Assembly: GCA_030390025.1 (NCBI GenBank)
Contig: CM059432.1
Span: forward strand, 14,944,001-15,008,000
Direction: 5' to 3'
DNA: 64,000 nucleotides
Source: Squalus acanthias
Taxonomy: Eukaryota
Shown here piece by piece: positions 7,143 to 61,999 of the stretch (the first letter of the stretch is position 1; each line of letters begins with the position of its first letter). The translations under genes were made by a program, and so were the position numbers. The notes beneath the pieces are model-generated. The model was not told where the DNA came from and did not search any database. It saw nothing but the letters and a program-made list of their open reading frames with translations.

Positions 7143-7264
7143 ATTGTGAATTCTGGGAGATTCTCTCATTGCTAACTTACCTGACGAAGGAGCGACAGCT
7201 CCGAAAGCTTGTAAAATTAAATAAATCTGTTGGACTATAACCTGGTGTTGTGCGACTTCTCACT
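7143..7264 (+). mobile_element. Short hammerhead-bearing Penelope-like element, copy 1 (single arm, subfamily with 5' extension)
   Basis: TTAC-CTGACGA-A-GGAGC-GACA-GCTCC-GAAA-GC-TT-GTAA at 7177-7214, then AATAAA and TGTTGGACTATAACCTGGTGTTGTGCGACTTCTCAC. No clear TSD. Confidence 0.85.
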
Positions 7265-9831
7265 GTTGTTAATACTGAGTGAGGGAGGGGGGATCTGTTG
7301 AGTTTAGAGATTGTCATATTATTTCAACCCAAGTCCTATCTCCTAATGGCAAGAGAAGCAAGAAACCCAACTGTAACAGTAACACTTGATCCCAAACACC
7401 CAAAGAAACCCAGATAAAGAAATAACTTGCATTTATATTGCACCTTTAACATCCTCAGGATGTCCCAAAACTCTTCATGGCTGACGAAGTACTTTTTTAC
7501 ATGTAGTCACTGTTGTAATGTAGGTAGATGTGGCAGCCAATTTGCACACAGCAAGGTCTCAGATTAATGTGAGATTAATGACCAGATCATTTGTTTTTAG
7601 CGAAGTTGATTGAGGGATAAATATTTATTATTTTTTAAATTCGTTCATGGGATGTGGGCGTCGCTGGCAAGGCCGGCATTTATTGCCCATCCCTAATTAC
7701 CTTTGAGAAGGTGGTGGTGAACCGCAGAGGGCAGTTAAGAGTCAATCACATTGCTGTGGGTCTGGAGTCACATATAGGCCAGACCGGGTAAGGACGGCAG
7801 ATTTCCTTCCCGAAAGGACATTAGTGAACCAGATGGGTTTTTATGACAATCCGGTAGTTGCATGGTCACCATTACTGATACTAGTTTTTAATTCCAGATG
7901 TACTTAATTAATTGAAATATTGACTAGGACACCAGGAAAACTCCCCGGCTCCTCTTCGAATAGTGCCATGGGATCTTTTACATCCAGCTGAGAAAGCAGA
8001 CAGGGTCTCGGTTTAATGTCTCATCCGAAAGATGGTACAACACTCCTTAGTACTCCATTTGCTTACCTGCACCCTAATGTGTATGCATCTGACTGGATTC
8101 TGGTTAAGTATTTTCAATATGAAAACAGTTTAGAAATGCAACCCTACAGCTTGCCTTGTGTAAAAAAAAAATGAACCGCATCGGTAGCAATTGCATGGTC
8201 TCAGTATATGAAAGGGTTGCCAACCAACACTGAACATTACTGAGATCTCAGGCACTTTTTCCAGAGGGCCATATAACATAGCTCTTTGAATTATCTTATA
8301 ATGAACTTCAGGGAACTTACATAAGCAATTTGCACCTCGTTTGCCCATATCTCAGACTGTAAGAATAAAATGCTTAAAATGCTCACACATTCAGTATTTG
8401 TCACTTTAATTCCTCACTATCCCTTCATTATTGGGATTCGATCTGTCATAAATTGCAGTAGAATATTACCTAGACACTGTAAAATGTGCTTTGTGTTCTT
8501 TCAACCATAACTCATTACAGAGAACTTTCACGGCATCAATAACTCACCATCGCCCTTTTGGTTCGGCTCAATACCCTGCCTACTATTTAGTGATAAAATC
8601 TGATATAATAAAATATTAATTATGACCGAAAGGCTGCATTGGAAATATGAACTCAATTATGGCTCACATATTGTGAATGAAGGGCAGGGCAAAAAAGCCT
8701 CACGGTTTTAGAGGACTCAATATATAAAAGAGCCCTCGAAGATTAGAATTAGATTTATCTCATTTTTTTTTTTAAAAAGAGTTTAAGAATGCACTATAGT
8801 CATGATGGAATTCTAACGCTAAGATACATTTTGCCCCTAAATAATGCTTAACTTAGGAAGTTGCTACATAAACTTGATCTGTTCTTGCCTTTCTATATTT
8901 AGCTACCGGTAAAACCACAACCTTTGAAGGAAAAACTTACAATTGGCTTGGGCTAGTCCTGACACTGCTAATCCCCTTGAATCATACATTTGTCACAACT
9001 TGTGCAGTTCCCTGGGGCTGATAGCTAGTAGCTAGTGGCGATGAAATAACAGCAATCCTTGTCTACGCTCTGGGCAAGCAAATATAGAAAACACTAAGAA
9101 AGTGAGGCAGTATCAAGTTTATTCATTCATTTCAATTAGCTATTACCTGATATTGTTTCTATCGCAGCATTACTGCCCTGAAATTGCCTCATTGCAGTGC
9201 TCTTTTCTGTTTTGGTTTTATGCACAGTGAATGAAATCACTCAAATTGTTTCGGATGGATAAAGTCAATGGATAGGGAATTATTCCCAGGATACATTCAT
9301 ACTTGGTTCATTGGAACAAGAAAGCCTCTTGGGAACTGATCCATGTTCTACCGCAGAAACTGCAGAGCTTCACCCCTATAATTGTAGTTGATCCACGCAA
9401 CTGCTCCCAAAATTGTTAAAGTGAAAACATTTGAGGGTTTCATTCCCTCTGCATTATTTGTAGTGTAGCGGTCAACACATTCGAGTTCCATTCCTGTCTG
9501 TGTTATTTTAAAACAACAGTCAATTTGTGTGCAATAAACAAGCTAATGCCTGCATTAAAATAGTGCAGAGAGGAATTTAATGTGAGAATTTAACGTGTAT
9601 ATGGTAACCAGTGTGCTAACAAGACAATTCCCTGGTTCCTACCCGTGCTCTTATTATGTGACCTTAAGTAAGAAAATTATGAATGTCAAGTGTCACTCTT
9701 TTCCAAGTTAATCTTATTTGAGGTAATCATTAATACGCAGTGCAATGACAGACCGGGTTCTCTTTCCTACCCTGTGGCAGCTTAGGGAAGTAACTGTTCC
9801 CCATTGTTAACAGACAGTACAAATTTGTGAC

Positions 9832-10282
9832 GAGTTGGTAGCACTCTCGCCTCTGAGTCAGAAGGTTGTGGGTTCAAGTCCCACTCCAGAGACTTGAGCA
9901 CAAAAATCTAGGACTGACACTCCAGTGCAGTGCTGAGGGAGTGCTGCACTGTCGGAGGTACTGTCTTTCGGATGAGATGTTAAACCAGGTTAAACCTGCT
10001 CTCTCAGGTGGACGCAAAAGATCCCATGGCACTATTTCGAAGAAGAACAGGGGAGTTCTCCCCGGTGTCCTGGCCAATATTCATCCATCTACCAACATCA
10101 CGAAAACAGATTAGCTGGCCATTATCACATTGCTGTTTGTGGGACCTTGCTGTGCGCAAATTGGCTGCCACGTTTCCCACATTATAACAGTGACTGCACT
10201 TCAAAAGTACTTCATTGGCAGTAAAGCACTTTGGGATGTCCTGAGGTCATGAAAGGCGCTGTATAAATGCAAGTCTTTCTTT
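9832..10282 (+). mobile_element. tRNA-derived Deu-domain SINE (SacSINE1/AmnSINE-like) with L2-type tail
   Basis: Box A/B head (AGTTGGTAGC...GGTTCAAGTCC), central GGATGAGA...AAAGATCCCATGGCAC...CCCCGGTGTCCTGGCCAA, tail ATAAATGCAAGTCTTTC. Other copies at ~7420-8050(-), 15497-15810(-), 16080-17330(-), 20150-20740(+), 25228-25790(-), 39415-39670(+), 48280-48660(+), 52378-52750(-), 60455-60820(-). Confidence 0.85.
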
Positions 10283-12140: not shown

Positions 12141-12804
12141 AATACTGTCTGCACCAAGCAATACAAACCAGAAGGAGTAATGAATTGAGTGAAATTTGCG
12201 TACTGTTAGTTTGAGCTTGTATGTGTTTGGTATCATCAAGTACGCGACAGATTTTTAATTTGTGCAAAATGAAAAAGATCAAGCAGAAGGAAAATTGGAA
12301 TAAGTTTTGCTGCAGTGCGAATGATCAGTTCTAGGAATTAATTTTCATTCTGTGTTTTATCTATTATAGTAGATAAAACACAGAATGAAAGATAATTCCT
12401 TGAGCTTCTTTAAAAAGTGTTTCAATCCTAAACATTTGTTACCAAGGAAGTATCCAATGCTCTGATTGTTTGGCTCAATTAGTATCACTCTTGACTCCGA
12501 ATCAGTTCAAGCCCCATTTCCTATTAACCTGCTCAACATTTGTTCCTCAACCAGCACTGCCAAAATAAAGCAAAGTAACTGGTCATTCATCTCATTGTTG
12601 TTTGTGGGATTTTGCGGTGTTCAAAATGGCTGCCTCTCTATGCTCACATAATAACAATGACTACACTTCAAATATATATCCACTTGATTTAAAGAGGTAG
12701 TGTAGTTGTCATCTGGAGTATCTATGTAATTCTGGGATGGTAGTGTAGTGGTAGAGAATGTCTCATGCCAACACAAAATCTGTAACAGTGGCTTTGCATC
12801 CAGA

Positions 12805-12918
12805 ATTGAGAGGTCGCACAACACCAGGTTATAGTCCAACAGTTTTATTTTAAATCACAAGCTTTCGGAGTTACAACTCCTTCGTCGGGTGAAGTCCAAC
12901 ACCGGCATCTCCGCATCA
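12805..12918. mobile_element. Short hammerhead-bearing element, copy 2 (inverted arm joined to sense tail)
   Basis: TSD TTTGCATCCAGA at 12793-12804 and 12919-12930. The minus-strand arm has a mutated core (CCGACGA) and joins the plus-strand tail GTCCAACACCGGCATCTCCGCATCA. Confidence 0.88.
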
Positions 12919-14534
12919 TTTGCATCCAGAGGCAGTGATGCTTTACTGTCCACCGGTTGCCATAGATACTAAACTGTCTGGTCGAATCCAGTACACATTT
13001 TATTGACTACACAAAGTACAGATGGCCAGAAGGTAGTGTGTAAATTAGCTGTACCAAGACACGACTGCTGTGAGCTGACAGTCAAGTATCATTACCTATG
13101 AGGCTTATCTTCATACTTCCAGTACAGGTCTGGCACGTGAAGATGCATCTTGCCTGGTCTGGTATTTATATTTGCCTGCGCCAACCGCCCCCCCCCCCAC
13201 CCCACCAAAATTCAACTATTTGAACGGTTAAAAATGACCAGTAATAGATAATGGGGCAGGTAAACCAAACTAATTTCTCGGGAGAGATCCTGTGACCCAG
13301 CCTGACACCAATTAGATCTCGCAATAGTGCCCTGCCAGATATATTTCACTATTCAGACTACAAGATGACAACCAATTATGCGGTTTTGACGTGGCCTTGA
13401 CTGAATTGTGACCTGGAAAACAGATTTATTTTTTATGCACTTTGACAGAAAAGGACTTACTTTCAATTTAGACAGTTGAAGAAAAGCATTTAAATCTCAT
13501 TTGTGAGTTTTACTGTTAATCATTGCACCTCTCACATATCACTGCTTCTCGCATATCTCTAGAACATACAGCATTAACTCTCCAGATTATATTTCTATGG
13601 CCCCTGTGTCTTGTTAACTTTAAAGGTCTAGCAGGCAGATACTGCCTGACCCTGCTTGTTCACTTTCAGAATTGCATAATAATTGTCTTTTAGGATTTTA
13701 AATGGATTGGGAAAAACATACAACACAGGCCACTAAAGGAAAATTTTCCATTATCACATAAATCCCACTCTAAGGACTGATAGAACATTTCATGTTTGAT
13801 TCTATTTGATTGGGGTCAAGATTTGCAGAGTTTTAAATGCTTTTTAATTCTACCTGCTCCACCACCTTCTTCAGAAAATGGAATAAGAGATGACTGTCTC
13901 GGTTAGATTATGTGCTCAGAATCCTAACTTTGTCTATCTATTCAAAGAGCGTTCTTGCAGTGTCTGTGTTTTATACAGGGAAGAGGGTACATGACCATCC
14001 AAGTCCTCAATGATGGCAGAGCCCAGCATGTGAGTGCCAAAGATAAGACTGAAGCGTTTGCAACTATCTTTAGCCAAAAGTGCCGAGTGGATGATCCTTC
14101 TCGGCGCCTCCTCCTAAAGTCCCCACCATCATAGATATCAGTCTTTAGCAAATTCGATTTACTCCAGCGACATCAAGAAACGGCTGAGTGCACTGGACAA
14201 AGCAAAGGCTACGGGCCCCGACTATAACCCGGCTGCAGTGCTGAACACTTGTGCTCTCGAACTTGCCTGCAGCCAAGCTGTTCCAGTACAGTTACAGCAC
14301 TGGCATCTACCCGACAATGTAGAAAATTGTGCAGGTGCGTCCTGTCCACAAAATGCAGGACAAATCCAACCCAGCTAATTACTGTCCCATCAGCCTACTA
14401 CCAATCGTCAGCAAAGGTAATGGAAGGAATCGTCAATATTGATTTGTTGCTATTGTCGTCGTTAATGATGGCATCCCGCCACCACGTGTGTCCCAGTGAT
14501 GAGTGTGCTCTAAACATGTGTGTGTCCGAACGAT

Positions 14535-26894: not shown

Positions 26895-29800
26895 TCAAAA
26901 ATCTATCGATCTCTGTCTTGAATATACTCAACGACTGAGCCTCCACAGCCCTCTGGGGTAGAGAATTCCAAAGATTCACCACCCTCTGAGTGAAGAAATT
27001 TCTCCTCATCTCAGTCCTAAATGGCCGACCCCTTATTCTGAGACTGTGACCCCTGGTTCTAGACTCCCCAGCCAGGGGAAACATCCTCCCTGCATCTACC
27101 CTGTCAAGTCCTGTAAGAATTTTGTATGTTTCAATGAGATCACCTCTCATTCTTCTAAACTCTAGAGAATATAGGCCAAGTCTACTCAATCTCTCCTCAT
27201 AGGACAACTCCCCCATCCCAGGAATCAGTCTGGTGAACCTTCATTGCACTCCCTCTGTGGCAAGTATATCCTTCCTTAGGTAAAGAGACCAAAACTGTAC
27301 ACTATACTCCAGGTGTGGTCTCACCAGGGTCCTATATAATTGCAGTAAGACGTCTTTACTCTTATATTCAAACCCTCTTGTAATGAAGGCCAGCATCCCA
27401 TTTGCTTTCCTAATTGCTTGCTGTACCTGCATGTTAACTTTCAGTGATTTGTGTACAAGGACACCCAGGTTCCGCTGAACACCAACATTTCCCAATCTCT
27501 CACCATTTAAAAAATACTCTACTTTTCTATTTTTCCTACCAAAGTGGATAACTTCACATTTCTCCACATTATATTCAATTTGCCATGTTCTTGCCCACTC
27601 ACTTAGCCTGTCTATATCCCCTTGAAGCCTCTTTGCATCCTCCTCACAACTTACATTCCCACCTAGCTTTGTATCATCAGCAAACTTTCGCGAATCTTTT
27701 CCTTTTTACATACGTATAGAAGCTTTTACAGTCTGTTTTTATGTCTCCCGCTAGATTACTCTCATATTCTATTTTCCCTTTCTTTATCAATTTCTTGGTC
27801 CTCCTTTGCTGAATTCTAAAATCTTCCCAATCCTCAGGCTTACTACTCTTTTTGGCAACATTATAAGCCTCTTCCTTTGATCTAATACTATCTTTAACTT
27901 ATCTTGTTAGCCACAGTAGGACCACTTTTCCTGTGGAGTTTTTGTGCCTTAAAGGATTTTATATTTGTTGTAAATGTATTAATTCCTTAAATGCTAGCCA
28001 TTGCTTCTCTACCATCATACCCTTTAATGTAGTTTCTCAATCTACCTTAGCCAACTCGCCCCTCATACCTACGCAGTTTCTTTCATTTAGATTTGAGACC
28101 CTAGTTTCAGATTTAACTAAATCACTTTCAAACTCAATATATAATTCTTCATATTATGGTCACTCTTCCCTAAAGGCCGCTTTACTAAAGGTTATTAATT
28201 AACTCTTTCTCATTGCACAATACTAGATCTAAAATAGCCTTTTCCCTAGTTGGTTCCTCAACATACTGATCTAGAAAACTATCTTGCATACATTCCATGA
28301 ATTTGCCCTCCGCACTATTACTGCAAATTTGGTTTGCCCAGTCTATATGTAGATTAAAGTCCCCCATGATTACTGTATTACCCTTGTTACATGCACCTCT
28401 AATTTCCTGATTTTTACTCTGCCCTACATTACAACTATTGTTTGGGGGCCTATAAACAACTCCCACCAATGTTTTATGCCCCTTGCTATTTCTTAGCTCC
28501 ATCCAAACTGATTCTACTTCTTGATTTTTGGAGCTAAGATCCTTTCTCTCTGCTGTCTTTATCCCATCCTTTATTATCAGGGCTACCCCTCCTCCTTTCC
28601 ATTTTGCCTATCTCTTCTAAAAGGTAAGTATCCTGGAATATTTAGTTCCCACCCTTGGCCACTTTGCAACCATGTCTCCGTTATGGCTATTAGATCAAAC
28701 CTGTTAATTTCTATCTGCGCTATTAATTAATCTTCATGCATTCAGATATAGTGCCTTTAGCTTTGACTTATTTCTATTTTTCCCTAATGTCACCTTAGTC
28801 ACTGATGCCCTATTACCTTTGTTATTCTCTCTGTCCCTTCCTGACTCACTCTGCTTATTTTTACCCAAGACTCTGCTCTGCTCTAGAGCCTTGACATTTC
28901 TCTCGCTGCTTTTAAATTTACTCTTTTCTGAATCCTCCCACCCCCTTCATTAGTTTAAAGCCCTGTCTACTGCCCTAGTTATTCAGTTTGCCAGGACACT
29001 GGTCCCAACCAGGTTTACGTGGAGCCTGTCCCAACGGAACAGCTCCCTCTTTCCCCTGTACTGGTGCCAGTGCCCCATGAACTGAAACCCCTTCCTCCCA
29101 CACCACTCTTTGAGCCACGCATTTAAACCTCTAATCTGTTTGTCCCTATGCCAATTTGCACGTGGCTCAGGTAACAATCCAGAGATTATTACCTTTGAGG
29201 TTCTGCTTTTTAATATGGATCCTAGCGCCTCAAACTCCCTCAGCAGAACCTCATTCCTAGTTCTACCTATGTCGTTGGTTCCTATGTGGACCACAACAAC
29301 TGGATCCTCCCACTCCCACTCCCACACCAAATTCTTCTCCAGCCGCGAGGAGATGTCTTTAACCCTGGCACCAGGCAGGCAAAACAACCTTCGGAACTCT
29401 TGGTCACAGCTGCAGAGAACAGTATCTATCCCCCTGACTATACTGTCCCCTATCACAACTACATTCCCTTTCACTTCCCCACTTGAATGGCCTCCTGCAC
29501 CATGGTCAGTTTGCTCATCCATCTTGCAGACTTTTCCCTCATCCACACAGGCAGCAAGAACCTCATACCTGTTGGACACCTGACGAAGGAGCAGCGCTCC
29601 GAAAGCTTGTGATCTCAAATAAAGCTGTTGGACTATAACCTGGTGTTGTGCGACTTCTCACATTTGTCCACCCCAGTCCAACACCGGCATCTCCACATCA
29701 TGGCTGTTGGACAAAGGCAAAGGCTGAGGCTCCTCCAGCACTGCACCTTGGGTCTCCTTACCTGGGTGAGTTGGAGTCACACCCTCCTGTCCCTGACCAC

Positions 29801-30600: not shown

Positions 30601-30814
30601 CTGTGAAGACTGCTCTGCACGGACTGGTGGAGTAGAGAGGTCCTGGAGCATTGTGGAAGGGGAACGGATGTTTTGGCATTATTGAGGTGAGGGCTGAGGT
30701 CTGGACAATTCAGGAGGGGAGTAGAGGAATAGCAGCATTTAAGGAGAAGCAGCCCAAGTTTTCGCATCTGACTTTCCATGTCCCTTTTGATGCCATTCTA
30801 CACTGTTAACAGAG

Positions 30815-32208
30815 AATCATAGAATGGTACAGCACAGAAGGAGACCATTCGGCTCATCGTGTCTGTGCCGGCTCTTTGAAAGAGCTATCCAATTAGTCCC
30901 AGTCCTCTGCTCTTTCCCCACAACCATGCAAATATTTCCCCTTCAAGTATTTATCCAATTCACTTTTGAAAGTCATTATTGAATGTGCTTCCTCAGCCCT
31001 TTCAAGCAGTACATTCTAGATCATAACAACTCGCTGCGTAATAATTATTTTTATGCCAATTACCTTAAATGTGTGTCCTCTGGTTACCGACCCTTCTGCC
31101 ACTGGAAACAGTTTCTCCTTCATGATTTTGAACATCTCTATCAAATCTCCCCTTAACCTTCCCTGCTCCAGGGAGAACAACTCCAGCTTCTCTAGTCTTG
31201 CCACATAACTGAAGTTTTTCATCCCTGGTACCATTCTAGTAAATCTTTTTTGCACCCTCTCTAAGGCCTTGACATCCTTCTTAAAGTGTGGTGCCCAGAA
31301 TTGGCCACAATACTCCAGCTGGGGACTAACCAGTGTTTTATAAAGGATTAGCATAACTTCCTTGCTTTCGTACTCTATGCCTCTATTTATAAAGCGGACA
31401 TGATGCGGAGATGCCGGTGTTGGACTGGGGTGGACAAAAGTGAGAAGTCGCACAACACCAGGTTATAGTCCAACAGTTTTATTTGAAATCACGAGCTTTC
31501 GGAGCTGCTGCCCCTTCGTCAGGTGAAGGGAGTGGTTGTGGGGAACGAGCAGAGGACTGGGACTAATTGGATAGCTCTTTCAAAGAGCCGGCACAGACAC
31601 GATGAGCCGAATGGTCTCCTTCTGTGCTGTACCATTCTATGATTCTCTGTTAACAGTGTAGAATGGCATCAAAAGGGACATGGAAAGTCAGATGCGAAAA
31701 CTTGGGCTGCTTCTCCTTAAATGCTGCTATTCCTCTACTCCTGACTTCACCTGACGAAGGGGCAGCAGCTCCGAAAGCTTGTGATTTCAAATAAAACTGT
31801 TGGACTATAACCTGGTGTTGTGCGACTTCTCACTTCTATTTATAAAGCCGAGGATCCTGTATGTATTTTTAACAGTCTTCTTAACTTGTCTTGTCACCTT
31901 CAAAGACTTGTGTACGTATATCCCCAGATGTCTCTGTTCTTGCACCCCCTTTCAAATTGTACCATTTAGTTTATGTTGCCTCTTCTCATTCTTCCTACCA
32001 AAATGAATCACTTCACACTTCTCTGCATTAAATTTCATCTGCCATGTGTCTGCCCATTTTACTGGTCTGTCTATGTCCTCCTGAAGTCTGTTACTATCCT
32101 CCTCACATTTCCGAGTTTCGTGTCATGTACAAACATTGAAATTATGCCCTGTACACCCAAGTTCAGGTCATGAATATATATCAAATAGAGCAGTGGTCCC
32201 AATACTGA
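30815..32208 (-). mobile_element. CR1 3' portion interrupted by element copy 4
   Basis: LYKTLVSPQLEYCGQFWAP...RLRGDLIEMFKIMK and 3'UTR; RT sequence resumes after 31848. Confidence 0.85.
31396..31834. mobile_element. Short hammerhead-bearing element, copy 4: two inverted arms around captured local DNA
   Basis: TSD TCTATTTATAAAGC at 31382-31395 and 31835-31848. Arms at 31396-31528 (-) and 31743-31834 (+). Spacer 31533-31741 is the reverse complement of 30718-30926. Confidence 0.92.
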
Positions 32209-38436: not shown

Positions 38437-39410
38437 GGCCCGGATTTTACGGTAAGAATAAAGGCGATGCTATCAATGCTCACAGTCATTAAGGAGTAAA
38501 TAGGACAGCAACTTCAGGCGTCCGCACATGTGCAGTTAAATGTGGAAATCGTGAAGTTGCTGTCCGAGTTGCCCTACTCCTCCAGACGCTTCGCTCTAAC
38601 AGTATCTCGCCGAGAGACTCAGCACTGAAACACTTGCAACGCTGTGAAGTTGCGGTACTTACTCACTAGACACCCACTAAACAGGCCAGAAAAAGTTAGG
38701 GCTTGTCCATTCCAGTGTAAGTGAATTTTTAACGGTATGATAAGTCTTAATTACTGCCAAATAACCTCCCTGGCACTGAAAATTAGCTTTTAAAAGTGTG
38801 GAGTTAATTATTGTGATGCGGAGATGCCGGTGTTGGACTGGGGTGGACAAAAGTGATAAGTCGCACAACACCAGGTTATAGTCCAACAGTTTTATTTGAA
38901 ATCACAAGCTTTCGGAGCGACTGCTCCTTCGTCAGGTGACGAAGGAGCAGCAGCTCCGAAAGCTTGTGATTTCAAATAAAACTGTTGGACTATAACCTGG
39001 TGTTGTGCGACTTATCACGAGTTAATTATTGTTGGAGACTTTTAAAAATAAAAATAATTTTTTTTTACTTTTTCTTTCTGTCTCTTTTATCTCTCTCTTA
39101 ATCCCATCTTTCTTTCCCTCTCTTTATTTCGCTTTCTGTACATGATTTGGCGTTGAATTAATAACTGACACTTCCCGGTTTAGACTCTGCATGGTGCAGT
39201 AAGGATTCTGCAATCTGATTGGTTAAGGAGACACACTGTTGCTTGCCCTGTTCACACAGGTCCCAGGTGCCCTGTAGAGGGAGCCGTGCCGTTTTGGATT
39301 TCTAATTACCGCAAGTTGCGGTGCAAATTCCCACAGAAAGTATGTGGGCAAGTGTAAGTGTAATGAACAGCGAGCGTCGCTCGTTCGCCGCTGACCGCAA
39401 AGTCCGGGCC
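38437..39410. mobile_element. Harbinger-like MITE (hosts element copy 5)
   Basis: TIR GGCCCGGATTTTACGG / CCGCAAAGTCCGGGCC, flanked by CAT and AAT. Confidence 0.72.
38815..39018. mobile_element. Short hammerhead-bearing element, copy 5 (palindromic)
   Basis: TSD GAGTTAATTATTGT at 38801-38814 and 39019-39032. Head-to-head arms meet at GTCAGGTGAC. Confidence 0.92.
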
Positions 39411-40700
39411 AATATGTCTCAGGTGGACGTAAAAGATCCCACAGCAATATTTCGAAGAAGAGCAGGGGAGTTATCCCCAGTGTCCTGGCCAATATTTATC
39501 CCTCAACCAACATCACTAAAACAGATTATCTGGTCATTATCACATTGCTGTTTGTGGGAGCTTGCTGTGCGCAAATTGGCTGCCGCGTTTCCTACAGTGA
39601 CTGCTTCACTGACAGTAAATTGCTTTGGGATGTCCTGAGGTCATGAAAGGTGCTATATAAATGCAAATCTTGCTTCCTTCATGGGTTGTGATACGTTGGA
39701 AAAATAACATTTAAGGACAGGTAAGATGATAAAATTTTGAGCAGAAACATCTTCCAAGAATCTCATGACTCCCCGGACTGGCAGGATGCACAGTCCGCTT
39801 CAGAGCTCGTGCGTCCCATACCCCAGCACCCCCACCATCCAACCCTCCCCCCACCCCCCCGCCCCCTTTTAAAGAGGGCCATGATATCACAGTTCACACC
39901 CAGAATCCAAAGCAGTCATGGCAGTATGACAAGGAATTGCGTGGGAAACAAGGAAAAGACTTCCTTTGTGAGCAAAATCATGACCGCCTTCATATAAGAA
40001 CATATTTATGATCTCCTTACAAATAGCAAACAGAGTAAATCCCTCCTCCCCAGAGTTTCCTTACAGAGACAGGGGGAAATTGAGGAGTTACCTCAGGGCT
40101 AACTATAATTCTCCAACAGTGGCCAACTTCTGCATGACACTCAAGCAAGCCTGGAGGCAGAATGCCTGCAAAGAGGTCTTATTTCCCATCATTTAAATAA
40201 ACGATTCCCTCGAATCAGTCTACACATTGTGACAATGATGTTTTATTAATCAACAATTTTCTCATTCCTGATATATTATACAAACCAATGACTGAGATTC
40301 CAGGTCGATAGTCTTTGCTAATGGCTGGTTGCTAGGAGATGAATGGGAGTGGTACATATTGATTAACAGACTAATTTCCCTCCATCTCTACACGTATGCA
40401 CCTAACCCCTACCTCATGAGATTTTCTTCAACAATTACAGCAAATTAAAAAAAAATCATGATAGAAAATTAGAGAGTTGTGTGTCTGTATATCAATGGGA
40501 AGCACAGCAAACAAGTCCTGAAGAGATGCCTAGAAGCCATGAAAGAAATAATCCTCCAACTATTGTTCTCTAAAGCCTCTGACAGTGACATTTGCCACTT
40601 GGATTCCTGCACAAGAATTTCCATTACAACCTATAGCTTTTGATATCTACACAAGCATCTGTACTTTGTTCTTTAAATAACAGCTGTCATCATAAATAAT

Positions 40701-40980
40701 GAGAAGTCGCACAACACCAGGTTATAGTCCAACAGATTTATTAAATTTTACAAGCTTTCGAAGCAGTTCGCTCCTTCGTCAGGTAAGTTAGCAGTGAGAG
40801 AATCTCCCAGAATTCACAATTTATTGTGAATTCTGGGAGATTCTCTCACTGCTATCTTACCTGACGAAGGAGCGAACTGCTTCGAAAGCTTGTAAAATTT
40901 AATAAATCTGTTGGACTATAACCTGGTGTTGTGCGACTTCTCATTTTTGTCCACCCCAGTCCAACGCCGGCATCTCCACA
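40701..40980. mobile_element. Short hammerhead-bearing element, copy 6 (near-perfect palindrome with ~120-bp arms plus tail)
   Basis: TSD TCATCATAAATAAT at 40687-40700 and 40981-40994. Symmetry centre AATTCACAAT-TT-ATTGTGAATT near 40821. Confidence 0.92.
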
Positions 40981-41102
40981 TCATCATAAATAATAGCATT
41001 AAACAATATCGGTAGAATTCTTTTTAGTCAGCACCACAACGTTTGAGAATTGTCAAATGAAGTTGCTAAGAAATCTACATCTACATTTCTGTTTTCCCAA
41101 TA

Positions 41103-51461: not shown

Positions 51462-51523
51462 CATGATGCGGAGATGCCGGTGTTGGACTGGGGTGGACAA
51501 AAATGAGAAGTCGCACAACACCA
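51462..51523 (-). mobile_element. Short element copy 7, truncated (tail side only, no ribozyme)
   Basis: TSD GGTTATTGAG at 51452-51461 and 51524-51533, with microhomology GGTTAT to the element. Confidence 0.85.
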
Positions 51524-52904
51524 GGTTATTGAGTACATAGAAGTGTCAGGACTGGGGGAAAAAAAAGCATTAACGGTCAACTGGCCAGTCCTCAAAGATC
51601 AAAACATATTATTAGATTATTCCATGTTGTTTCAGGAATTGAGCCTGTACACAAACACCCCACTGAGCTGGTAATGTTCCTTAAAGGCACTTAGCACCAG
51701 CTCAAGCTATTGCCCTGATGAGCATCCCTAACACTCATGATGGAAGTAGAATCAAAGAGCCAGCTGCACCATCAGGACCCCAATAAAAATGAAATCGTTA
51801 CAAAGAATGATTGAATGACTTGGACTTTGTTCTTTAATGTTAATTGTGTTGTTTTTTTTGTTGTTGTTGAATATTTAATAGGGAAAACTGATGTGTTTAT
51901 TATGAGAACTGGCTTGGACAGAGCTTATTCAGAAGAGCTGCTAAACCCAACATGGTGAGTAAGTTGAATTCGCACACAACATAACTGGATGATATCACGG
52001 AGGCTCCCTAGGTTAACGACTATCCCAAGCGATATTAATTCAGCTCCCGCATGCTCTCAGATTCAATAACTCCTTCCAACCAGTTCCCTTCAGAATTCGC
52101 TGTTTAAATTTTTTTTTTAATCCGAAGATCAACAGACTGAAAAAGAACAATTAATAATAACTCTTTTTCAGCAAAATCATTTTAAATGGTGAAGCTCCCT
52201 CTTGAAAACAGTGAGAATTCAACTATCCAGCAGCTTAGTGATCAAATGTACCATCCAGGAAATCACTGAACTATGTTGATCAAAAAAGTCCTAGGTTCAG
52301 TCCCGCGTCTGTGTTGGGTTAGCTGAGCCCAGTATGGGTGCGACTATTGACCTCAGCACCATTTGTGCCAGGAAGAAAGAAAGACTTGCATTTATATAGC
52401 ACCTTTCACGACCTCAGAATGTCCCAAATTGCTTCACAGCCAATGAAGTACTTTTGAAGTGTAGTCACTGTTGCAATGTAGGAAACGCGGCAGCCAATTT
52501 GCACACAGCAAGCTCCCACAAACAGCAATGTGAGAGTGACCAGATAATCTGGCTTTTTTTTTTTAAGTGATGTTGATTGAGGGATAAATATTGGCCAGGA
52601 CACCAGAGGTAACTCCCCTGCTCTTCGAATAGTGCCATGGGAGCGCAGACAGGGCCTCGGTTTTAACATCTCATCCGAAAGACGGCACCTGTGACAGTGC
52701 AGCACTCCATCAGTACTGCACTGGAGTGTCAACCTAGATTTCTGTGCTCAAAGAAGGGCAAAAGGCAGATAGGGCTCCCACTCTTAATTGCTATTCTGTG
52801 ACATTCGATGACTCAACATGTGAAGAATGGCCATTTGAGTGAGGTCCCAACATAACCCAGCGTGAATCAGTGTATTCAGGAGGGAGAAGAGAAAGCTGGT
52901 GGCA

Positions 52905-52996
52905 CTTCACCTGACGAAGGAGCAGCGCTCCGAAAGCTTGTGATTTCAAATAAAACTGTTGGACTATAACCTGGTGTTGTGCGACTTCTCACATTT
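52905..52996 (+). mobile_element. Short hammerhead-bearing element, copy 8 (single arm without tail)
   Basis: CTTCAC-CTGACGA-A-GGAGC-AGC-GCTCC-GAAA-GC-TT-GTGA...GCGACTTCTCACATTT. No clear TSD. Confidence 0.85.
52907..52943 (+). ncRNA. Minimal type I hammerhead ribozyme motif (representative copy)
   Basis: Stem I TCAC/GTGA, core CUGACGA(+A), stem II GGAGC/GCUCC, GAAA, palindromic vestigial stem III (AGCU), H17=U. Predicted cleavage after 52939. Confidence 0.8.
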
Positions 52997-55978
52997 GGAA
53001 AAAAACAAGACAGTTGGGTTTTTTTAATTTTGTTTTCGGGATGTGGGCAAAACTAGCAAAGCTACATTTATTGCTCATCCCTAGTTCCCTCAAGAAGGTT
53101 GCGATGGGTCTTTTTGAACCACTGCAGTCCTTGTGTGAATTTATGAGCAATTGATGTATATTCCCTTTAATATGACTCACAGTTACAAGTGTTACCTTTA
53201 TATTGGAAATATTACTCCAACACTAGTCCTCATACATATAATCTGAGTACTTTAGGTATCTATACCTCAATCCTTTGCTGATTACATGGCACTTGGAGCA
53301 TGTTTCTGTTCAGTATATGGGTCCCCTTATGTTAATATAATAATGATTGAAGCTAATGGGTTGCAATGATAAAGCTTCTGTGGTATCAGATATATAAAAA
53401 TCAGTTGAATGAATGTCAGTCAGTAAGTTAATTGGGATGGTAACATAGGGTTCAATTATTGGAGTTTTTAATTTAAGTTTTAGGAATTTGAGGACAAATA
53501 TAAATGTCATAGTTTGTTTTATTTTATCCAAAATTGAGATCAATTAATAAGTCCTCAAACCACTTATAGATGTTAAGTTTAAAAACAAACGTATGGGGCG
53601 GGGGAAGAGAAGGAAGTTGTGATGACTGGGCCCCACCAGGGGTGGATGAAGTACTTCAAAAAAGTGTTTTTCTTCTTTCCTTTTATTTGGTTGTGTGAAG
53701 GATGGAAAGATTACAGCTGGAATCACTTTGGAGCGTTTGTACCACAGTTTATGCATGTTGAGCTGGATACCAGCCAGGGTTTATACAGTGGATGCCTTAG
53801 TTTTGCAGTTTCTAATTCAATCTGAAATAAGTAACATTTTATTTGTAAGAATAACTATAAACAGAGACCCCACCACCCCCCTCCCCAACGTCTTGTTCTC
53901 AGCATTTAACTCAGACTGCTCTATTGGAAAGAGTTCATTTTAGATCAGAGATTCCTTTTCACAAAGGTAACAGATGAGGGAAGCAAATCAGTCTGTCCTT
54001 CCATGGAAAGCTATGGTTCCCCTATAAACCTCACCCCTTGAAACACGGTCACTAACTTCATACGCAGCAAACTGCTACCGCCAAGTCTCTGCCCTGCCCA
54101 GCGCAGCCTCCCTGCTGGCTTCATGCTGACTACTGAGGTGAGGGCAAGCAGCCAAATACAAGCCCGCAATTGGAAGCTCCTGCCGATAGAGCTGGCCCCT
54201 GACAGCATTAAGAAGAATTATTGGCCCTGCTTCTCTCACAGACCTGGCCCACCTGTATATGGATCGAGACCCAGGGATCAAACAGAGAACCCTTGCTGTT
54301 GTACTCCAACTTACTAAAATAGATCAACCAACAGCTACACAATGGCTGGGAGGATGAATGGAATGGCTCCTAGAGTTTTTTGTCTCCACTTCCCTAACTG
54401 GAATATTATTCCAGGTATTAATTTAAGGTGGGCAACTGTTTCCTGCCAACAGTTCTGAACTTGTTTTTACCCGTTTGTACCGACATCCCCCATGCCCTTT
54501 AAATAGTGCTCCAGATATACCTTTTTTTCCCCACTTAGTATCTTATATAAGATTCCCTCTCATTCCCTCATTTTAAGTCTGAAAGAGCCATCGGTCCTTA
54601 TCACTCTGACCTCTGACACAAGGGATGAGCCTTGTGACCTTCTCCGCACTGGCTCCAGGGTTTTGATATTTCCCTTATGCCCGTAGAAGTGTTGTAAGAC
54701 GTGTTTATTCCTTGTGGGAAAGTGCTGAGTGCTGCCCAGTTCACAGCTCTAGCAGGTAACGTCCAGCCGAGGACCCCTGGGAGTCGAGCTTAGCCCGCGG
54801 TCAATAAAATGTCACTTCAAAGACTTGTGTTGACTGACGTCAAATGCATTTCAAATGGACCAACCTGAAACAATAATCCGACTCGAGTTTGCAACAATCA
54901 GCTTTATTACTCCCTGTTAAAAACTGTGAAAGATTCCAGAGAGATTTAAAATGTGCCCTCGGCTTTATAGCGAATATAAAGCTAGCCCTAACACAATGGT
55001 TTATTGCCGTGTCCTTCACTTCTAGGACCTGGAATCAATCAATGTCAGACTTGTGGGATGAAACATTTCCTCTGTCATTCTCAGCTGCGAGGGCACTATG
55101 TGAAATAAATGTGGGCGGTTTTAATATGGTTCCTAGTGAGTGCAAGTGGATGGCATGAAACCATAATTCATAACAAAGCTAGCCATCCCACTCACAAGAG
55201 TCCACAAGGACAGCTGCTGTAGTAAGTGGAACAATTAACACTGGTACAGTGGAGGGAGGTGCACTTCCTCATTGCGTGCAACATTGAAAGAGCGTGATTG
55301 CGAGCCGTGTACATGTGCTGTCAGACCCAATGCCGAGAATGACCTGGTAATTAGCGTGTCTTTATTTGTTTCCTAGCAGTGGTGGGACTGAGTTGGTTGC
55401 AACATAATGCCATTTCTCTCCGTGCTCTCGATTTCTTGATGCTCAACTTAAGGCCTCTGTCCACGTCAGTTTCCTCATGGAGGCCACCTCCACCTCAGCT
55501 GGAAGGGCAGCAATTTCTTGAAACTCACCGGAAGATTGAGGGCGAGCTGTTGCTTTCACGAGGCTAATGGCGGAGCGGCACAAATCATGCAACAACTTGT
55601 GGTGATTCGCAACTGAAAGGGTATCTCTTCCGCATCACCAATTGCTGGACAGTTTACACACTAATAACAGCCTGCACATTAAACTCGACCTTATTTTGCC
55701 AGCAAATTCTGGCCCGTTGTTTTATGCACAGAAAAGGGGGCACTGCGAGCAAACTGCGTCCAGGTACGAGCATTATATGAAAGGGGTGTTCCCTAAATTT
55801 TGGTTACATTTCTGCCCCATGGGCCGGGTGGAAGCTGCAGTTTACACGTCCAGGATGTGTGGGATTGTAAGAAGTGGTCTTTCTGCCTGCTTGCCCGTTT
55901 TAAGAGCTTCAATACGCATCTCAGGTGACCATGGAATGTGAACACGTGATGTCCAGCAATTCATGCAAAGCTTTCCGT

Positions 55979-58645: not shown

Positions 58646-58841
58646 GCAAAATAGTTGGAATTCATTATCTTAGGAAGGTCATAACAGGAATGCACAGATC
58701 ACTTTTATATTACAGTACTTTCAGAGACAGTGCCATTAAATAAACCATTGACTCTGGAAGGATCAATATGTACTGTACAAATTTACAATAAATGGCTACT
58801 TCCATCAGCATTGGATTTATATTAAGAGGAACCTAGAAATA

Positions 58842-59658: not shown

Positions 59659-59868
59659 GCCCCTCGAGCCTGTTCCGCCATTCAATTAGATCATTGCTGA
59701 TCTGAATCTTTGCTCCATTCACCCACCTTGGTTCCATATCCCTTAATACCCTTACCTAAAATAAAAATCTGTCAGCTCTGTTTTGAAATTTTCAATTGAC
59801 CTAATGTCAACAGCTTTTTGGGGGGAAAGGGTTTCAGATCTCCACTACCTTCTATGTTACCTACTAAT

Positions 59869-60302
59869 GGGCAACACGGTGGCATAGTGGTTAGCACTGG
59901 TGCCTCACAGCGCCAGAGACCCGGGTTCGAATCTGACCTCGGGTGACTGTCTGTGTGGAGTTTGCACATTCTCCCCGTGTCTGCGTGGGTTTCCTCCGGG
60001 TGCTCCGGTTTCCTCCCACAGTCCAAAAATGTGTGGGTTAGGTTGATTTGGCTATGATAAATTGACCCTTAGTGTTAGGGGGGATTAAATATGTGGGGTT
60101 ATGGGGATAGGATGGGATATGTTAGGGGGAATTAAATACGTGGGGTTACGGGGTAGGGTGGGATATGTGTACTGTGGGGATTAAAGCAGGGACAGGGTAC
60201 TGGATTTGGATGATCAGCCATGATCGTATTGAATGGCGGAGCAGGCTCGACGGGCCGAATGGCCTACTCCTGCTCCTAGATTCTATGTTTCTATGTTTCT
60301 AT
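59869..60302 (+). mobile_element. HE1-type V-SINE with CR1-derived 3' tail
   Basis: GGTGGCATAGTGGTTAGCAC...GGTTCGAATC head; V-domain TGTGTGGAGTTTGCACATTCTCCCCGTGTCTGCGTGGGTTTCCTCCGGGTGCTCCGGTTTCCTCCCACAGTCCAAA; (TTCTATGT)n tail. Confidence 0.88.
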
Positions 60303-61150
60303 GAAGTGCTTCCTGACATCATCCCTGGATGGATCAACTCTAATTTTAAAGTTATACTCCATTGTCCTCGACTCCCCCACCAGAGGAAATAGTTTCTGTG
60401 TAGCTACCCGATCACGCCTCTCACAAATGACACAAATCACTGCACATACAATTAATTACTTTGAAGTGCAGCGGCTGCTGATATGTAGTTAAACAAGGGA
60501 GCTATTTTGGAACAGAAAGATCCTTCAAACAGAAGTGGGATGAATGACCATTAATCTGTTTTAGTGATATTAGTTGAGGGACACTGGGAGGACTCTTGGC
60601 ATATTTTGGCATCTTTAATGTCCACCTTAAATGACGGAGCAGGCAGTCGGAAGCCTTGTCTTAATGTCTCATCTGAAGGACATAACCTCTGACAAGGCAG
60701 CGCTCCCTCAGTACTGTACTGAAGTGTCAGCTCAGATTATGTGCTCAAGTCCGAGTGTGGAGCTGCAACCCACAAAAGCGTCTAAACCCGAGGCGAAAGC
60801 GCTACCCACTGAGCCAAGCAGACAAATGTCAAGACACCACTGAAGCGTGAGGGGCTTTCCAAGTGGAATGCATCACATGATGGGGCCACGGTTAAGCTTT
60901 GTGTGGAATCTAAATGATGAGTTTAACAGATGAATCTGTCAGCGAGCAGTCAGAAACAATGCAATCAGTTCACGGGGCTTTGAAAGTCCCCTCGTCATGT
61001 TACGCTTAAAATCAGCCAGCGGGCACACCACCCTATTTGGCCTTGTAACTTTTCCAAACCAGTATGGCAGCAACTTTCACTACCTAAGAGAAATAATTTA
61101 AGAAAATTATTTTTCAAAAATGAATAGAATTAGGTAAATAAACAAACAAT

Positions 61151-61999
61151 GGGCCTGAATTTGCGGTCGGAGGCATCTCCCCGCAAATAAAGTCCGTGCC
61201 TACCTGATGGTCCCCCGTAGGCACCGACTGTTCCGGTCCTGGGCCTCTATGCAAACGCCTGCGTAAGGCCCACGTATCCTAGGGGTGCACGCGGTTTGCG
61301 AGAGCCCCCTGGGATCACGTGGGCCGACCCGCGGACGGAATCCCCATAAGCATGAATGGAAAATCCCCCCAAAAAAACATTTACACGCCAATTAAATAAA
61401 AAATAAAATTACATGTTTAAGATTAATTAAAATACAATTTAACGAAACATTTAAAACAAAAATGTTATTTTTTGAAAAATAAATGTAAACCCTTTAAAGG
61501 GGCTAAAAAATAACCTAAACTTATTTTACAGGTTTATTTAATAATTAAAAAAAATATATGTTGTATATTCATTTAAACTTTTACCAGGCGTAAGAATTTC
61601 ACGGGCATTCGCTGGGCAGTGTCTCCGCCAGCAAATGTCCTTTTCCTGGGGATTCGTACGGTCTGTCAATAAGATTCTTGAGAAGTCGCACAACACCAGG
61701 TTATAGTCCAACAGATTTATTTAAAATTACGAGCTTTCGGAGCTGTTGCCCCTTCGTCAGGTAGAGGTACAATGTACCTGAGGAAGGGGCAACAGCTCCG
61801 AAAGCTCGTAATTTTAAATAAATCTGTTGGACTATAACCTGGTGTTGTGCGACTTCTCATTTTTGTCCACCCCAGTCCAACGCCGGCATCTCCGCAATAA
61901 GATTCTTGACAGATCGCAAGTTCCGGGGCTTCGCGCGCGAAAACCCAAAACTTGCGGGGCCCTTGCGTATGTGGCCAGAGGCCCCGGAAAATCCGGGCC
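61151..61999. mobile_element. Second copy of the Harbinger-like MITE (hosts element copy 9)
   Basis: GGGCCTGAATTTGCGG ... CCGGAAAATCCGGGCC, flanked by AAT and ATT. Confidence 0.75.
61682..61894. mobile_element. Short hammerhead-bearing element, copy 9 (palindromic), inside a MITE
   Basis: TSD CAATAAGATTCTTGA at 61667-61681 and 61895-61909. Inverted arms with an ~11-nt spacer; the plus arm has core CTGAGGA. Confidence 0.92.

What the first reader, a model, noticed from the sequence alone, without database searches (positions are those of the whole stretch)
7143..61909. Active-looking family of tiny non-coding hammerhead-ribozyme retroelements (nine insertions in 64 kb)
Seen: one unit recurs at 7143, 12805, 29579, 31396, 38815, 40701, 51462, 52905 and 61682. 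Its order is hammerhead - AATAAA - TGTTGGACTATAACCTGGTGTTGTGCGACTTCTCA - tail TTTGTCCACCCCAGTCCAACACCGGCATCTCCGCATCA(TG). It has no ORF and no poly-A, and seven copies have intact, variable-length TSDs (10-15 bp). It sits inside CR1s and MITEs, so it postdates them. The 5' ends are not random: most start within about 10 nt of the ribozyme core, and copies 1 and 6 share the same longer start (ATTGTGAATTCTGGGAG). Established: Penelope-like elements carry minimal hammerheads in their pLTRs and give inverted, tailed insertions; non-autonomous ribozyme retroelements (retrozymes) are known in other taxa. Inference: a defined ~125-160 nt non-autonomous element mobilised in trans by a Penelope RT/GIY-YIG protein. 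I cannot tell whether this family is already catalogued.
Basis: partly seen in the sequence, partly recalled or inferred. Interest (0 to 1): 0.88.

Follow-up and report, generated by a model that had tools for sequence, protein, structure and literature searches.

The report
Truncated Penelope-like retroelement end copies
The nine short hammerhead-bearing repeats are real, but they are the usual dead-end end-pieces left by a full-size Penelope-like jumping gene in the same genome, and most of them seem to be copies of just the first 130 bases of that gene's messenger RNA.

Summary
There are nine insertions (13 arms) with the order hammerhead - AATAAA - 35-mer - optional tail, and 8 of 9 have target-site duplications. 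They are not a separate 125-160 nt non-autonomous family.

The same genome holds a 3.1-kb Penelope-like element (PLE) with an RT ORF. The unit is the stretch just upstream of that ORF's ATG, and it recurs at the element's 3' end. The "tail" is the last ~40 nt before the ATG.

Window copy 1 is really a 427-nt copy (6836-7262) that keeps a coding remnant. In a position-ordered sample of 60 genomic copies, 19 run on upstream into the PLE.

Inverted dimers with a one-sided tail are the canonical PLE insertion anatomy. Published work explains them by two internal RT start sites used on both cut DNA strands.

The modal end is a single A that lies 30 nt after a TATATAT box, inside an initiator-like motif, and is often preceded by an untemplated G. 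I infer (about 60%) that these are run-off cDNAs of the capped mRNA leader.

This is a known kind of element with one modest new mechanistic hint.

The parts
6836..7262 (+). Insertion 1: a solo untailed arm of 427 nt from a second PLE subfamily. It holds the end of the RT/endonuclease ORF (remnant), the 3' UTR, the hammerhead (core C3 at 7181), AATAAA and the 35-mer. TSD CTGTTGTTAATA at 6824-6835 and 7263-7274.
12806..12919 (-). Insertion 2: an inverted dimer. The untailed arm lies on the minus strand (about 12806-12893) and is joined head-to-head to a tailed arm truncated to the last 26 nt of the tail (12894-12919, plus strand). TSD TTGCATCCAGA at 12795-12805 and 12920-12930.
29579..29703 (+). 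Insertion 3: a solo tailed arm that starts 1 nt before the hammerhead core and ends at CATCATGG. TSD CTGTTGGACA at 29569-29578 and 29704-29713.
31396..31834 (.). Insertion 4: a tailed arm on the minus strand (31396 to about 31531), 215 nt of unrelated sequence (31526-31740), then an untailed arm on the plus strand (31741-31834) that starts G+ACTTCAC. TSD TCTATTTATAAAGC at 31382-31395 and 31835-31848.
38815..39018 (.). Insertion 5: a head-to-head dimer. The tailed arm is on the minus strand (38815-38938) and the untailed arm on the plus strand (38937-39018). The arms meet at the CUGACGA core. TSD GAGTTAATTATTGT at 38801-38814 and 39019-39032.
40700..40983 (.). Insertion 6 (second subfamily): a near-perfect palindrome. 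The untailed arm is on the minus strand (40700-40821) and the tailed arm on the plus strand (40823-40983). Both arms start at ATTGTGAATTC, with 2 nt between them. TSD TCATAAATAA at 40690-40699 and 40984-40993.
51462..51529 (-). Insertion 7: a solo tailed arm truncated inside the 35-mer, with no hammerhead. TSD (GG)TTATTGAG at 51454-51461 and 51526-51533, overlapping the element end by microhomology.
52904..52997 (+). Insertion 8: a solo untailed arm that starts CACTTCAC, at the modal 5' end, and ends 6 nt into the tail. No clear TSD.
61680..61895 (.). Insertion 9 (third hammerhead variant; helix I UAC/GUA, H17 = C): the untailed arm is on the minus strand (61680 to about 61774) and the tailed arm on the plus strand (about 61775-61895). 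TSD AATAAGATTCTT at 61668-61679 and 61896-61907.

Best explanation
The units are dead-on-arrival terminal copies of an autonomous, recently active Penelope-like element (PLE) family of this 3.7-Gb genome.

The full element has a repeat period of about 3.1 kb: pLTR (TATA box, hammerhead, AATAAA, 35-mer) - ~40-nt 'tail' - ATG - RT ORF with a GIY-YIG-like C-terminal motif - 3' UTR - pLTR.

The published model is this. The PLE protein cuts both target strands. On each strand it primes reverse transcription at one of two neighbouring internal sites of the RNA. In this family, one site lies at the end of the 35-mer (untailed arm) and the other at the ORF's ATG (tailed arm). The two cDNAs are then joined head to head, often by microhomology. 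That gives inverted dimers with a one-sided tail and a variable TSD.

My inference for this family: about half of all insertions stop at one nucleotide zone 0-7 nt upstream of the hammerhead core because the template RNA ends there. That zone is the capped transcription start of the pLTR promoter. On this reading the ~95/~131-nt unit is a run-off cDNA of the mRNA leader (cap to ATG). It would be made whenever the RT starts at the first, 5'-proximal initiation site instead of one downstream of an ORF. Such copies carry the ribozyme motif but no promoter and no ORF, so they should not propagate further.
For: Shown:
1. A full-length copy (L061) carries TSD GCATTTAAATA. It is an inverted tailed arm followed by pLTR - tail - ATG - ORF - pLTR, the last one untailed. 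Its direct repeats are spaced 3108 bp. The ORF hits Pfam RVT_1 (3e-9, above the cut-off). Its nearest protein-atlas clusters carry RVT_1 plus GIY-YIG. Tandem arrays with ~3138-bp spacing exist.
2. The sequences between inverted arms are palindromic upstream extensions that reach the ORF end. Window copy 1 keeps an ORF remnant.
3. Abundance: the unit's 35-mer has 102,351 genomic hits at <=1 mismatch, against 676 for a 35-mer of the ORF start. Reversed controls give 0.
4. In 60 tailed copies taken in genome order, 31 have an arm ending at reference positions 505-512, 19 are longer, 9 are shorter and 1 ends at 495-504. Tailed arms end at exactly A505 in 10 of 60 (next commonest position: 3). Untailed arms end at 506 in 9 of 46.
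5. None of the 60 partner arms has a tail. Untailed arms end at 588-604 and tailed arms mostly at 633-637, around the ATG.
6. TATATAT starts 30 nt before A505, which sits in TTCA+1CTTC.
7. In 10 insertions (11 arms: window copy 4, L003, L007 twice, L008, L011, L117, L118, L127, L132, L139), the base directly 5' of A505 is a G. Neither the reference (C504) nor the partner arm templates it. No other untemplated base was seen there.
8. The pile-up is not a property of the sequence itself. Of 20 copies that include the ORF start, about 10 read through the same site in their 5' pLTR, and at most 1 (L079) stops there.
9. The hammerhead is genuine. 97.5% of cells are paired; one helix-I pair switches C-G to U-A in 7 of 35 rows; N7 takes all four bases; an extra nucleotide follows A9; G10.1-C11.1 is conserved; AGCU is palindromic.

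Literature:
- Two internal RT start sites, tail = the sequence between them, both strands cut and extended, hammerhead dispensable in vitro: PMC11167929, main text read.
- Minimal hammerheads in pLTRs, dual motifs on opposite strands, single motifs ascribed to truncated PLEs: PMC4209133, passages.
- Inverted 5'-truncated copy, one-sided 30-40-bp tail, TSS inside the pLTR of Penelope: PMC8557442, passages.
Against: - No RNA evidence. No run is on record as RNA, and only contigs could be laid.
- Pfam finds no GIY-YIG domain in the C-terminal 156 aa. The endonuclease rests on a motif seen by eye (VVYLIRC...YIGET) and on atlas neighbours.
- Only about 1 of 20 ORF-bearing copies starts at the proposed start site, and 9 run beyond it. 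Long copies therefore come mostly from templates that begin further upstream.
- A second subfamily shows no comparable pile-up. About 27 of 40 arms run at least 55 nt upstream of the core, and only about 4 insertions end 4-10 nt before it.
- Identical junctions recur at independent loci: tailed arm from 505 + TG + untailed arm from 524, three times. So junction chemistry also shapes the apparent ends.
- The cap origin of the extra G, the TATA spacing and the initiator consensus are recalled knowledge. They were not tested here.
Confidence: 0.62

Rival explanations
1. The units are ordinary 5' truncation of cDNAs primed at the 3' pLTR of full-length RNA. On this view the cluster of ends arises because the RT stalls or falls off at the folded hammerhead, or soon after initiation. 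No RNA end or promoter is involved.
For: - 5' truncation is the rule for PLEs (PMC8557442 passages).
- Ends are also frequent inside the ribozyme, at 513-545 in tailed arms. Some sit at the helix II palindrome or the AAGCTT palindrome.
- The second subfamily shows a spread of ends without a sharp mode.
Against: - The same sequence is read through in the 5' pLTR of long copies, with at most 1 stop in about 10 passages. In terminal copies roughly half stop there.
- The single-nucleotide mode at A505 carries an untemplated G in 11 arms.
- TATA and initiator-like motifs lie at the right distance.
Confidence: 0.2
2. This is the first reader's view: a dedicated ~125-160-nt non-autonomous, retrozyme- or SINE-like element with its own masters, mobilised in trans by PLE proteins.
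For: - Copy number is very high relative to ORF-bearing copies: 102,351 against 676 hits for the two 35-mer probes.
- About half the copies have a defined length.
- Non-autonomous PLE derivatives are in print: Chlamys/MRC1 in PMC8557442, and non-LTR retrozymes in bioRxiv 10.64898/2026.07.22.740005 (abstract and first part of the Results).
Against: - The unit is collinear with, and 94-99% identical to, the leader/3' end of the autonomous element.
- Copies grade into coding copies.
- Short and long copies share the same helix II, AATAAA-flank and tail variants: G variant in 19 of 37 short against 4 of 15 long copies with a determinable variant. I ran no significance test on this.
- No direct tandem arrangement of short units was seen in the window or in the loci inspected.
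- The TATA box lies outside the short copies.
Confidence: 0.06
3. The units derive from hammerhead-processed RNA, either cleaved linear fragments or circles, so that ribozyme cleavage defines the element ends.
For: - The motif is a well-conserved PLE-type hammerhead.
- A circular-RNA route was proposed for PLEs (PMC4209133 discussion passage).
- One untailed arm (L007) ends at the predicted cleavage site, and one (L002) starts there.
Against: - The predicted cleavage site (after U541) is neither the modal 5' end nor a 3' end.
- In the 60-copy sample, 0 tailed arms and 1 untailed arm start at 542.
- Ends at 536-538 coincide with the AAGCTT palindrome.
- In the one PLE studied, ribozyme mutants insert normally and no reads end at the cleavage site (PMC11167929).
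Confidence: 0.03

Closest known systems
Canonical endonuclease-positive Penelope-like element insertions (Penelope/Poseidon/Neptune type), as described by Evgen'ev & Arkhipova and Craig et al. 2021 (PMC8557442)
   Same: - pLTRs formed by partial tandems
- heavy 5' truncation
- an adjacent inverted 5'-truncated copy
- a 30-40-bp tail at one end only
- a hammerhead in the pLTR
- variable TSDs
- no poly-A
   Different: Nothing structural differs. This family is extreme in the excess of very short copies (a probe ratio of about 150 to 1). Its tail ends exactly at the ORF's ATG.
PAc (Poseidon of Anolis carolinensis), with internal initiation of reverse transcription (Frangieh et al. 2024, PMC11167929)
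   Same: There are two neighbouring RT start zones about 35-40 nt apart that define the tail. Both target strands are used. Targets are AT-rich. Hammerhead cleavage does not define the ends.
   Different: In PAc the start sites lie 111-118 nt inside the ORF, and the hammerhead overlaps the start codon. Here the start zones lie at the 35-mer end and at the ATG, and the hammerhead sits in the leader, 7 nt from the inferred RNA 5' end. Run-off at the RNA's own 5' end as the main source of short genomic copies is not stated in the parts of that paper I read.
Minimal dimeric hammerheads of metazoan PLEs (Cervera & de la Pena 2014, PMC4209133)
   Same: - CUGANGA and GAAA cores
- an extra nucleotide between A9 and G10.1
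- a G10.1-C11.1 pair
- a palindromic AGCU in place of helix III
- a short helix I
- massive occurrence as single motifs, or as paired motifs on opposite strands 100-700 bp apart
   Different: None found. Self-cleavage was not tested. Many truncated copies lack part or all of the 5' strand of helix I.
Non-LTR retrozymes (Cervera & de la Pena 2020; Li et al. 2026 bioRxiv preprint)
   Same: They are non-coding, carry a type I hammerhead, and are related to PLE pLTRs.
   Different: Retrozymes are direct tandem repeats whose transcripts self-cleave to unit length and circularise. These units are solo or inverted, TSD-flanked, and end at RT start sites, not at ribozyme cleavage sites.

Membership tests
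EN+ Penelope-like element (insertion unit) | Full-length relatives encode a reverse transcriptase | tested here: met
   The L061 ORF (4328-5920) hits Pfam RVT_1 at E=3e-9, 37.3 bits against a cut-off of 29.6. Its atlas neighbours carry RVT_1.
EN+ Penelope-like element (insertion unit) | C-terminal GIY-YIG endonuclease in the same ORF | tested here: inconclusive
   Pfam finds nothing in the last 156 aa at E<=10. A GIY...YIG-like motif (VVYLIRC...YIGET) is visible in the translation. The best atlas clusters (score 0.97) carry PF01541 in 23-28% of members.
EN+ Penelope-like element (insertion unit) | Pseudo-LTRs formed by partial or full tandem arrangement | tested here: met
   Direct repeats of 300 and 224 nt are spaced 3108/3104 bp in L061. 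Arrays of ORF starts are spaced about 3138 bp.
EN+ Penelope-like element (insertion unit) | An adjacent inverted 5'-truncated copy, with a 30-40-bp tail at one end only | tested here: met
   5 of the 9 window insertions are inverted dimers. 46 of 60 sampled copies have a partner arm, and 0 of 60 partner arms carry the tail.
EN+ Penelope-like element (insertion unit) | [quoted passage not shown] | tested here: met
   Alignment A1 and the pair counts, together with the trait list from PMC4209133.
Rfam hammerhead families | A score at or above the gathering threshold of an Rfam hammerhead model | tested here: not met
   There are 0 matches at gathering score in the window. There is no hammerhead match at E<=10 in 28000-42000. 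This is expected for a motif without a helix III hairpin.
Non-LTR retrozyme | Direct tandem repeats of a hammerhead-bearing non-coding unit | tested here: not met
   All paired arms in the window and in the 60-copy sample are inverted. No direct tandem of short units was seen.
Non-LTR retrozyme | Unit-length self-cleaved and circular RNAs | not testable with these tools
   No run on record as RNA holds the stretch, and only contigs were available.

The most novel reading that the evidence does not exclude
In this PLE family the commonest retrotransposition product would be a run-off cDNA of the element's own capped mRNA leader. It would be primed at the two internal RT start sites that lie next to the ORF's ATG. 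If so, the tens of thousands of ~95/131-nt hammerhead units are a genomic footprint of two things: internal initiation in vivo, and the exact pLTR transcription start (an A lying 7 nt before the ribozyme core, marked by an untemplated cap-derived G). This would explain why minimal PLE hammerheads litter metazoan genomes as solo or paired inverted motifs. It would also place the ribozyme at the very 5' end of the mRNA, where self-cleavage would remove the cap.
Probability: 0.55. Interest if true: 0.45.

Novelty: new member of a known kind. Interest (0 to 1): 0.28.

Why it matters
For annotation, these units should be masked as PLE fragments. They should not be catalogued as a new SINE- or retrozyme-like family. 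The hairpin 'miRNA' hits they produce in Rfam searches below gathering score are artefacts of the palindromes.

For mechanism, the sharp 5' end with an extra G is a cheap, testable prediction. If it marks the cap site, genome sequence alone could map PLE promoters. It could also show that internal initiation, so far demonstrated in vitro for one lizard element, operates in vivo and wastes most events on the mRNA leader. That would bear on why PLEs need tandem copies to propagate.

Tried and rejected
- Rfam at gathering score and at E<=10 on 14 kb found no hammerhead. The only hits were sub-threshold miRNA models on the palindromic dimers, which I reject as artefacts.
- A 77-nt DNA query (35-mer plus tail) against the genome returned nothing, because very common words are skipped. 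I replaced it with exact-pattern searches.
- RNA evidence: no RNA holder is listed. Laying four runs gave contigs only, with RNA status a guess. Summed word depth was about 150-600 over the ORF start, about 9,000-30,000 over the upstream pLTR, and 170,000-370,000 over the 35-mer and tail. Many contigs diverge right after the tail end. I use this only as a rough echo of the copy-number contrast. It is not evidence on expression.
- I tested whether ATTGTGAATTC is a preferred start in the second subfamily: 0 of 40. I also looked there for a pile-up like that of the main subfamily and did not find one.
- Hammerhead-cleaved templates: I looked for ends at position 541/542 and found only two anecdotal arms.
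- The PDB sequence search with the ORF gave only marginal RT hits (E about 0.4).
- The dimer MFE fold of two leader copies did not reproduce the canonical intermolecular helix III. I draw no conclusion from this.
- A random 400-kb genome sample was not obtainable. Position-ordered pattern hits were used instead.

Full report
**1. The observation**

The tail occurs 6 times. BLAST with two copies as queries resolves 13 arms in 9 insertions. These lie at 7179-7269(+), 12807-12901(-) with a 27-nt tail piece at 12893-12919(+), 29578-29702(+), 31399-31525(-)/31741-31834(+), 38814-38938(-)/38937-39018(+), 40700-40823(-)/40823-40984(+), 51462-51529(-), 52904-52997(+) and 61679-61774(-)/61775-61899(+).

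So the recurrence, the internal order and the absence of poly-A are all real. Reading the flanks gives TSDs of 8-14 bp at 8 of the 9 insertions; copy 8 has none that I could see.

Five insertions are head-to-head inverted pairs, and the tail is present on at most one arm of each insertion.

**2. What the unit belongs to**

The window lies in a 3.71-Gb assembly. Thirty top genomic matches to a 125-nt unit were fetched. In seven of them the two inverted arms were separated by 100-1000 nt. In five of these (L009, L014, L023, L025, L027) the spacers are themselves palindromic and homologous to each other. In other words, both arms simply continue upstream by ~50, 67/125, ~140, ~200 and ~510 nt. 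The longest reaches the end of an ORF.

Walking from there gave a full element, L061. An 11-bp TSD (GCATTTAAATA) bounds the following, in order:
- an inverted tailed arm
- a direct copy that starts inside the ORF's 3' end
- a pLTR with the hammerhead, AATAAA and the 35-mer
- the 'tail'
- an ATG that opens a ~2.7-kb reading frame, broken in this copy into three pieces
- a 3' UTR
- a second pLTR that ends at the 35-mer without a tail

Direct repeats are spaced 3108 bp. The last ORF piece hits Pfam RVT_1 above threshold. Pfam does not call GIY-YIG in the C-terminus. However, a GIY...YIG-like motif is visible in the translation, and the nearest protein-atlas clusters combine RVT_1 with GIY-YIG.

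The 'tail' is therefore nothing special to a short element. It is the ~40 nt between the 35-mer and the start codon (CATCATG).

In the window itself, copy 1 is bounded by the TSD CTGTTGTTAATA at 6824-6835 and 7263-7274. It is 427 nt long, and at about 6836-6949 it still encodes the last ~40 residues of the PLE ORF at 74% identity (tblastn hit 6809-6949).

**3. Numbers**

- The 35-mer has 102,351 genomic matches at <=1 mismatch. A 35-mer from the ORF start has 676. Reversed-pattern controls give 0.
- The window holds about seven times the genome-average density of the 35-mer (12 in 64 kb against about 1.8).
- An exact 38-mer across the 35-mer/tail junction occurs 8,237 times.
- Because that list is in genome order, its first 60 places are unbiased with respect to the 5' end. 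I fetched 318 nt around each and mapped both arms onto a natural reference, L061:2612-3248. On that scale, core C3 = 512, the 35-mer = 559-593 and the ATG = 633.
- Result: 31 of 60 insertions have an arm ending at 505-512, 1 at 495-504, 9 are shorter, and 19 are longer. Twelve of the longer ones run beyond the 220 nt fetched. L085 and L087 look like one duplicated locus.
- Tailed arms end at exactly A505 in 10 cases; no other position exceeds 3. Untailed arms end at 506 in 9 of 46, with a secondary peak at 524 (5 cases).
- None of the 60 partner arms carries the tail. Untailed arms end 3' at 588-604, and tailed arms mostly at 633-637 (range 619-642).
- In the earlier, similarity-ranked sample, 19 of 30 tailed arms started at 495-512. 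L001 there is the window's own copy, and L010/L011 are a duplicate pair.

**4. Comparison with what is in print**

- Craig et al. 2021 (PMC8557442, passages) list the PLE hallmarks: frequent 5' truncation, partial tandems forming pLTRs, an adjacent inverted 5'-truncated copy, a 30-40-bp tail at one end only, hammerheads in pLTRs, and a TSS inside the pLTR of Penelope.
- Frangieh et al. 2024 (PMC11167929, main text read) showed the following for a lizard PLE. The protein cuts and extends both strands. Reverse transcription starts at two adjacent internal RNA sites, and the tail is the sequence between them. An RNA segment in the first 172 nt of the ORF is required. Hammerhead mutants insert normally.
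- Cervera and de la Pena 2014 (PMC4209133, passages) described the minimal PLE hammerhead with exactly the traits seen here. They noted paired motifs on opposite strands 100-700 bp apart, and single motifs 'probably related to truncated PLEs'.

The anatomy of all nine window insertions fits this picture without remainder. Three earlier notes of this scan, on other shark-type genomes, reached the same general verdict. I treated them as leads only.

**5. The ribozyme**

Rfam does not detect it. This is unsurprising for a motif with no helix III hairpin.

Evidence by hand and by pair counts on 35 distinct copies:
- CUGANGA, with N taking all four bases while the rest of the core is invariant
- an extra A after A9
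- a 5-bp helix II with loops of 3-8 nt
- GAAA
- a palindromic AGCU
- H17 = U or C
- a 4-bp helix I in which one pair switches C-G to U-A in 7 rows from at least three subfamilies

Overall 97.5% of cells are paired, against 23-52% when the partners are slid. The monomer MFE fold reproduces helices I and II. Cleavage was not tested. Copies that start at or after the core lack the 5' strand of helix I.

**6. Why the 5' ends pile up (inference)**

Four observations point to an RNA 5' end rather than an RT stall.

First, the mode is a single nucleotide.

Second, in 11 arms of 10 insertions the base abutting A505 is a G that nothing templates. The reference has C at that position, and no long copy has G there. 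I saw no other untemplated base at that place. Cases where the neighbouring base could come from the partner arm or from a fold-back were left out: L002, L004, L012, L013, L018, L030, L089, L108, L111, L113 and L121.

Third, TATATAT begins 30 nt upstream of A505, which lies in TTCA+1CTTC. The usual TATA-to-start spacing, the initiator consensus, and the reading of an extra 5' G as a reverse-transcribed cap (as described for L1) are recalled knowledge, not tool results.

Fourth, the same sequence is not a stop when it lies in the 5' pLTR of long copies. Twenty copies were chosen only for holding the ORF start. Their 5' ends were <=1 (three copies), 127, 229, 259, 454, 466, about 506 (L079), 533, 539, 548, 552, 573-580 (four copies), 596, 630 and 636.

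Combined with internal initiation, the simplest reading is this. An RT bound near the ORF start of an mRNA primes at the adjacent sites and runs off the capped 5' end after ~95 or ~131 nt.

Caveats:
- There are no RNA data.
- Long copies mostly derive from templates that begin further upstream.
- A second subfamily (window copies 1 and 6) shows no sharp mode.
- Identical junctions recur at independent loci with different TSDs (505 + TG + 524 at L117, L118 and L127; GAAG microhomology at L096, L109, L022 and L024). So the joining step also shapes the ends.

**7. Is it a separate non-autonomous family?**

I find no support for this.
- Short and long copies share the helix-II-loop, AATAAA-flank and tail variants.
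- No direct tandems of short units were seen.
- The TATA box lies outside the short copies.

I could not search Dfam or Repbase. My single literature search ('Penelope-like' plus 'hammerhead', 37 papers, 25 listed) does not allow a claim that the run-off idea is unpublished. The supplements of the cited papers were not read.

**8. Verdict**

This is a known kind of element. The residual interest lies in the cap-site/run-off hint.

Noticed in passing
window 16567-16932 (-): A second, unrelated PLE fragment. tblastn with the L061 ORF matches residues 396-519 (the endonuclease region) at 37.6% identity. This is a different PLE family from the nine units.
   Followed up: no
window 31526-31740: 215 nt of unrelated sequence sit between the two arms of insertion 4, inside its TSD. 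The sequence looks to me like the 3' end of an abundant LINE-like repeat (my impression, not tested). It is either a template switch to another RNA during insertion or a later nested insertion. Similar fillers of 109 nt (L124) and 47 nt (L103) occur elsewhere.
   Followed up: partly
L117, L118, L127 (G000:C1 near 12.21, 12.37, 13.89 Mb); also L096, L109, L022, L024: Independent insertions with different TSDs carry identical arm-to-arm junctions: tailed arm from 505 + TG + untailed arm from 524, or a GAAG microhomology joining 517 to 506. This suggests preferred pause or annealing points during joining of the two cDNAs.
   Followed up: partly
L007 (G000:C2:87897846-87898015): The untailed arm spans only positions 505-542, so its outer end coincides with the predicted hammerhead cleavage site. 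This is a single case. It could reflect priming on a self-cleaved capped 5' fragment, or it could be chance.
   Followed up: no
G000:C2:211213586-211223033; C1:223722534-223725706; C3:129328239-129331412: ORF-start probes recur on one strand at ~3138-bp spacing (four in a row on C2). These are true tandem PLE arrays of the kind thought necessary for producing full-length copies.
   Followed up: no
whole window: The window holds 12 copies of the 35-mer in 64 kb, against a genome average of about 1.8 per 64 kb. That is a roughly seven-fold local enrichment of PLE insertions. Most TSDs are AT-rich.
   Followed up: partly
window 40759-40884 and 38878-38993: The palindromic PLE dimers give sub-threshold Rfam hits to several plant and animal miRNA precursor models (best 55.7 bits against a gathering score of 87). 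These are hairpin artefacts that could mislead automated miRNA annotation.
   Followed up: yes
L061 7064-8967 (-): Two adjacent ORFs on the minus strand (392 and 253 aa) lie next to the full-length PLE copy. They look to me like a LINE reverse-transcriptase gene (impression from the translation; no family search was run).
   Followed up: no
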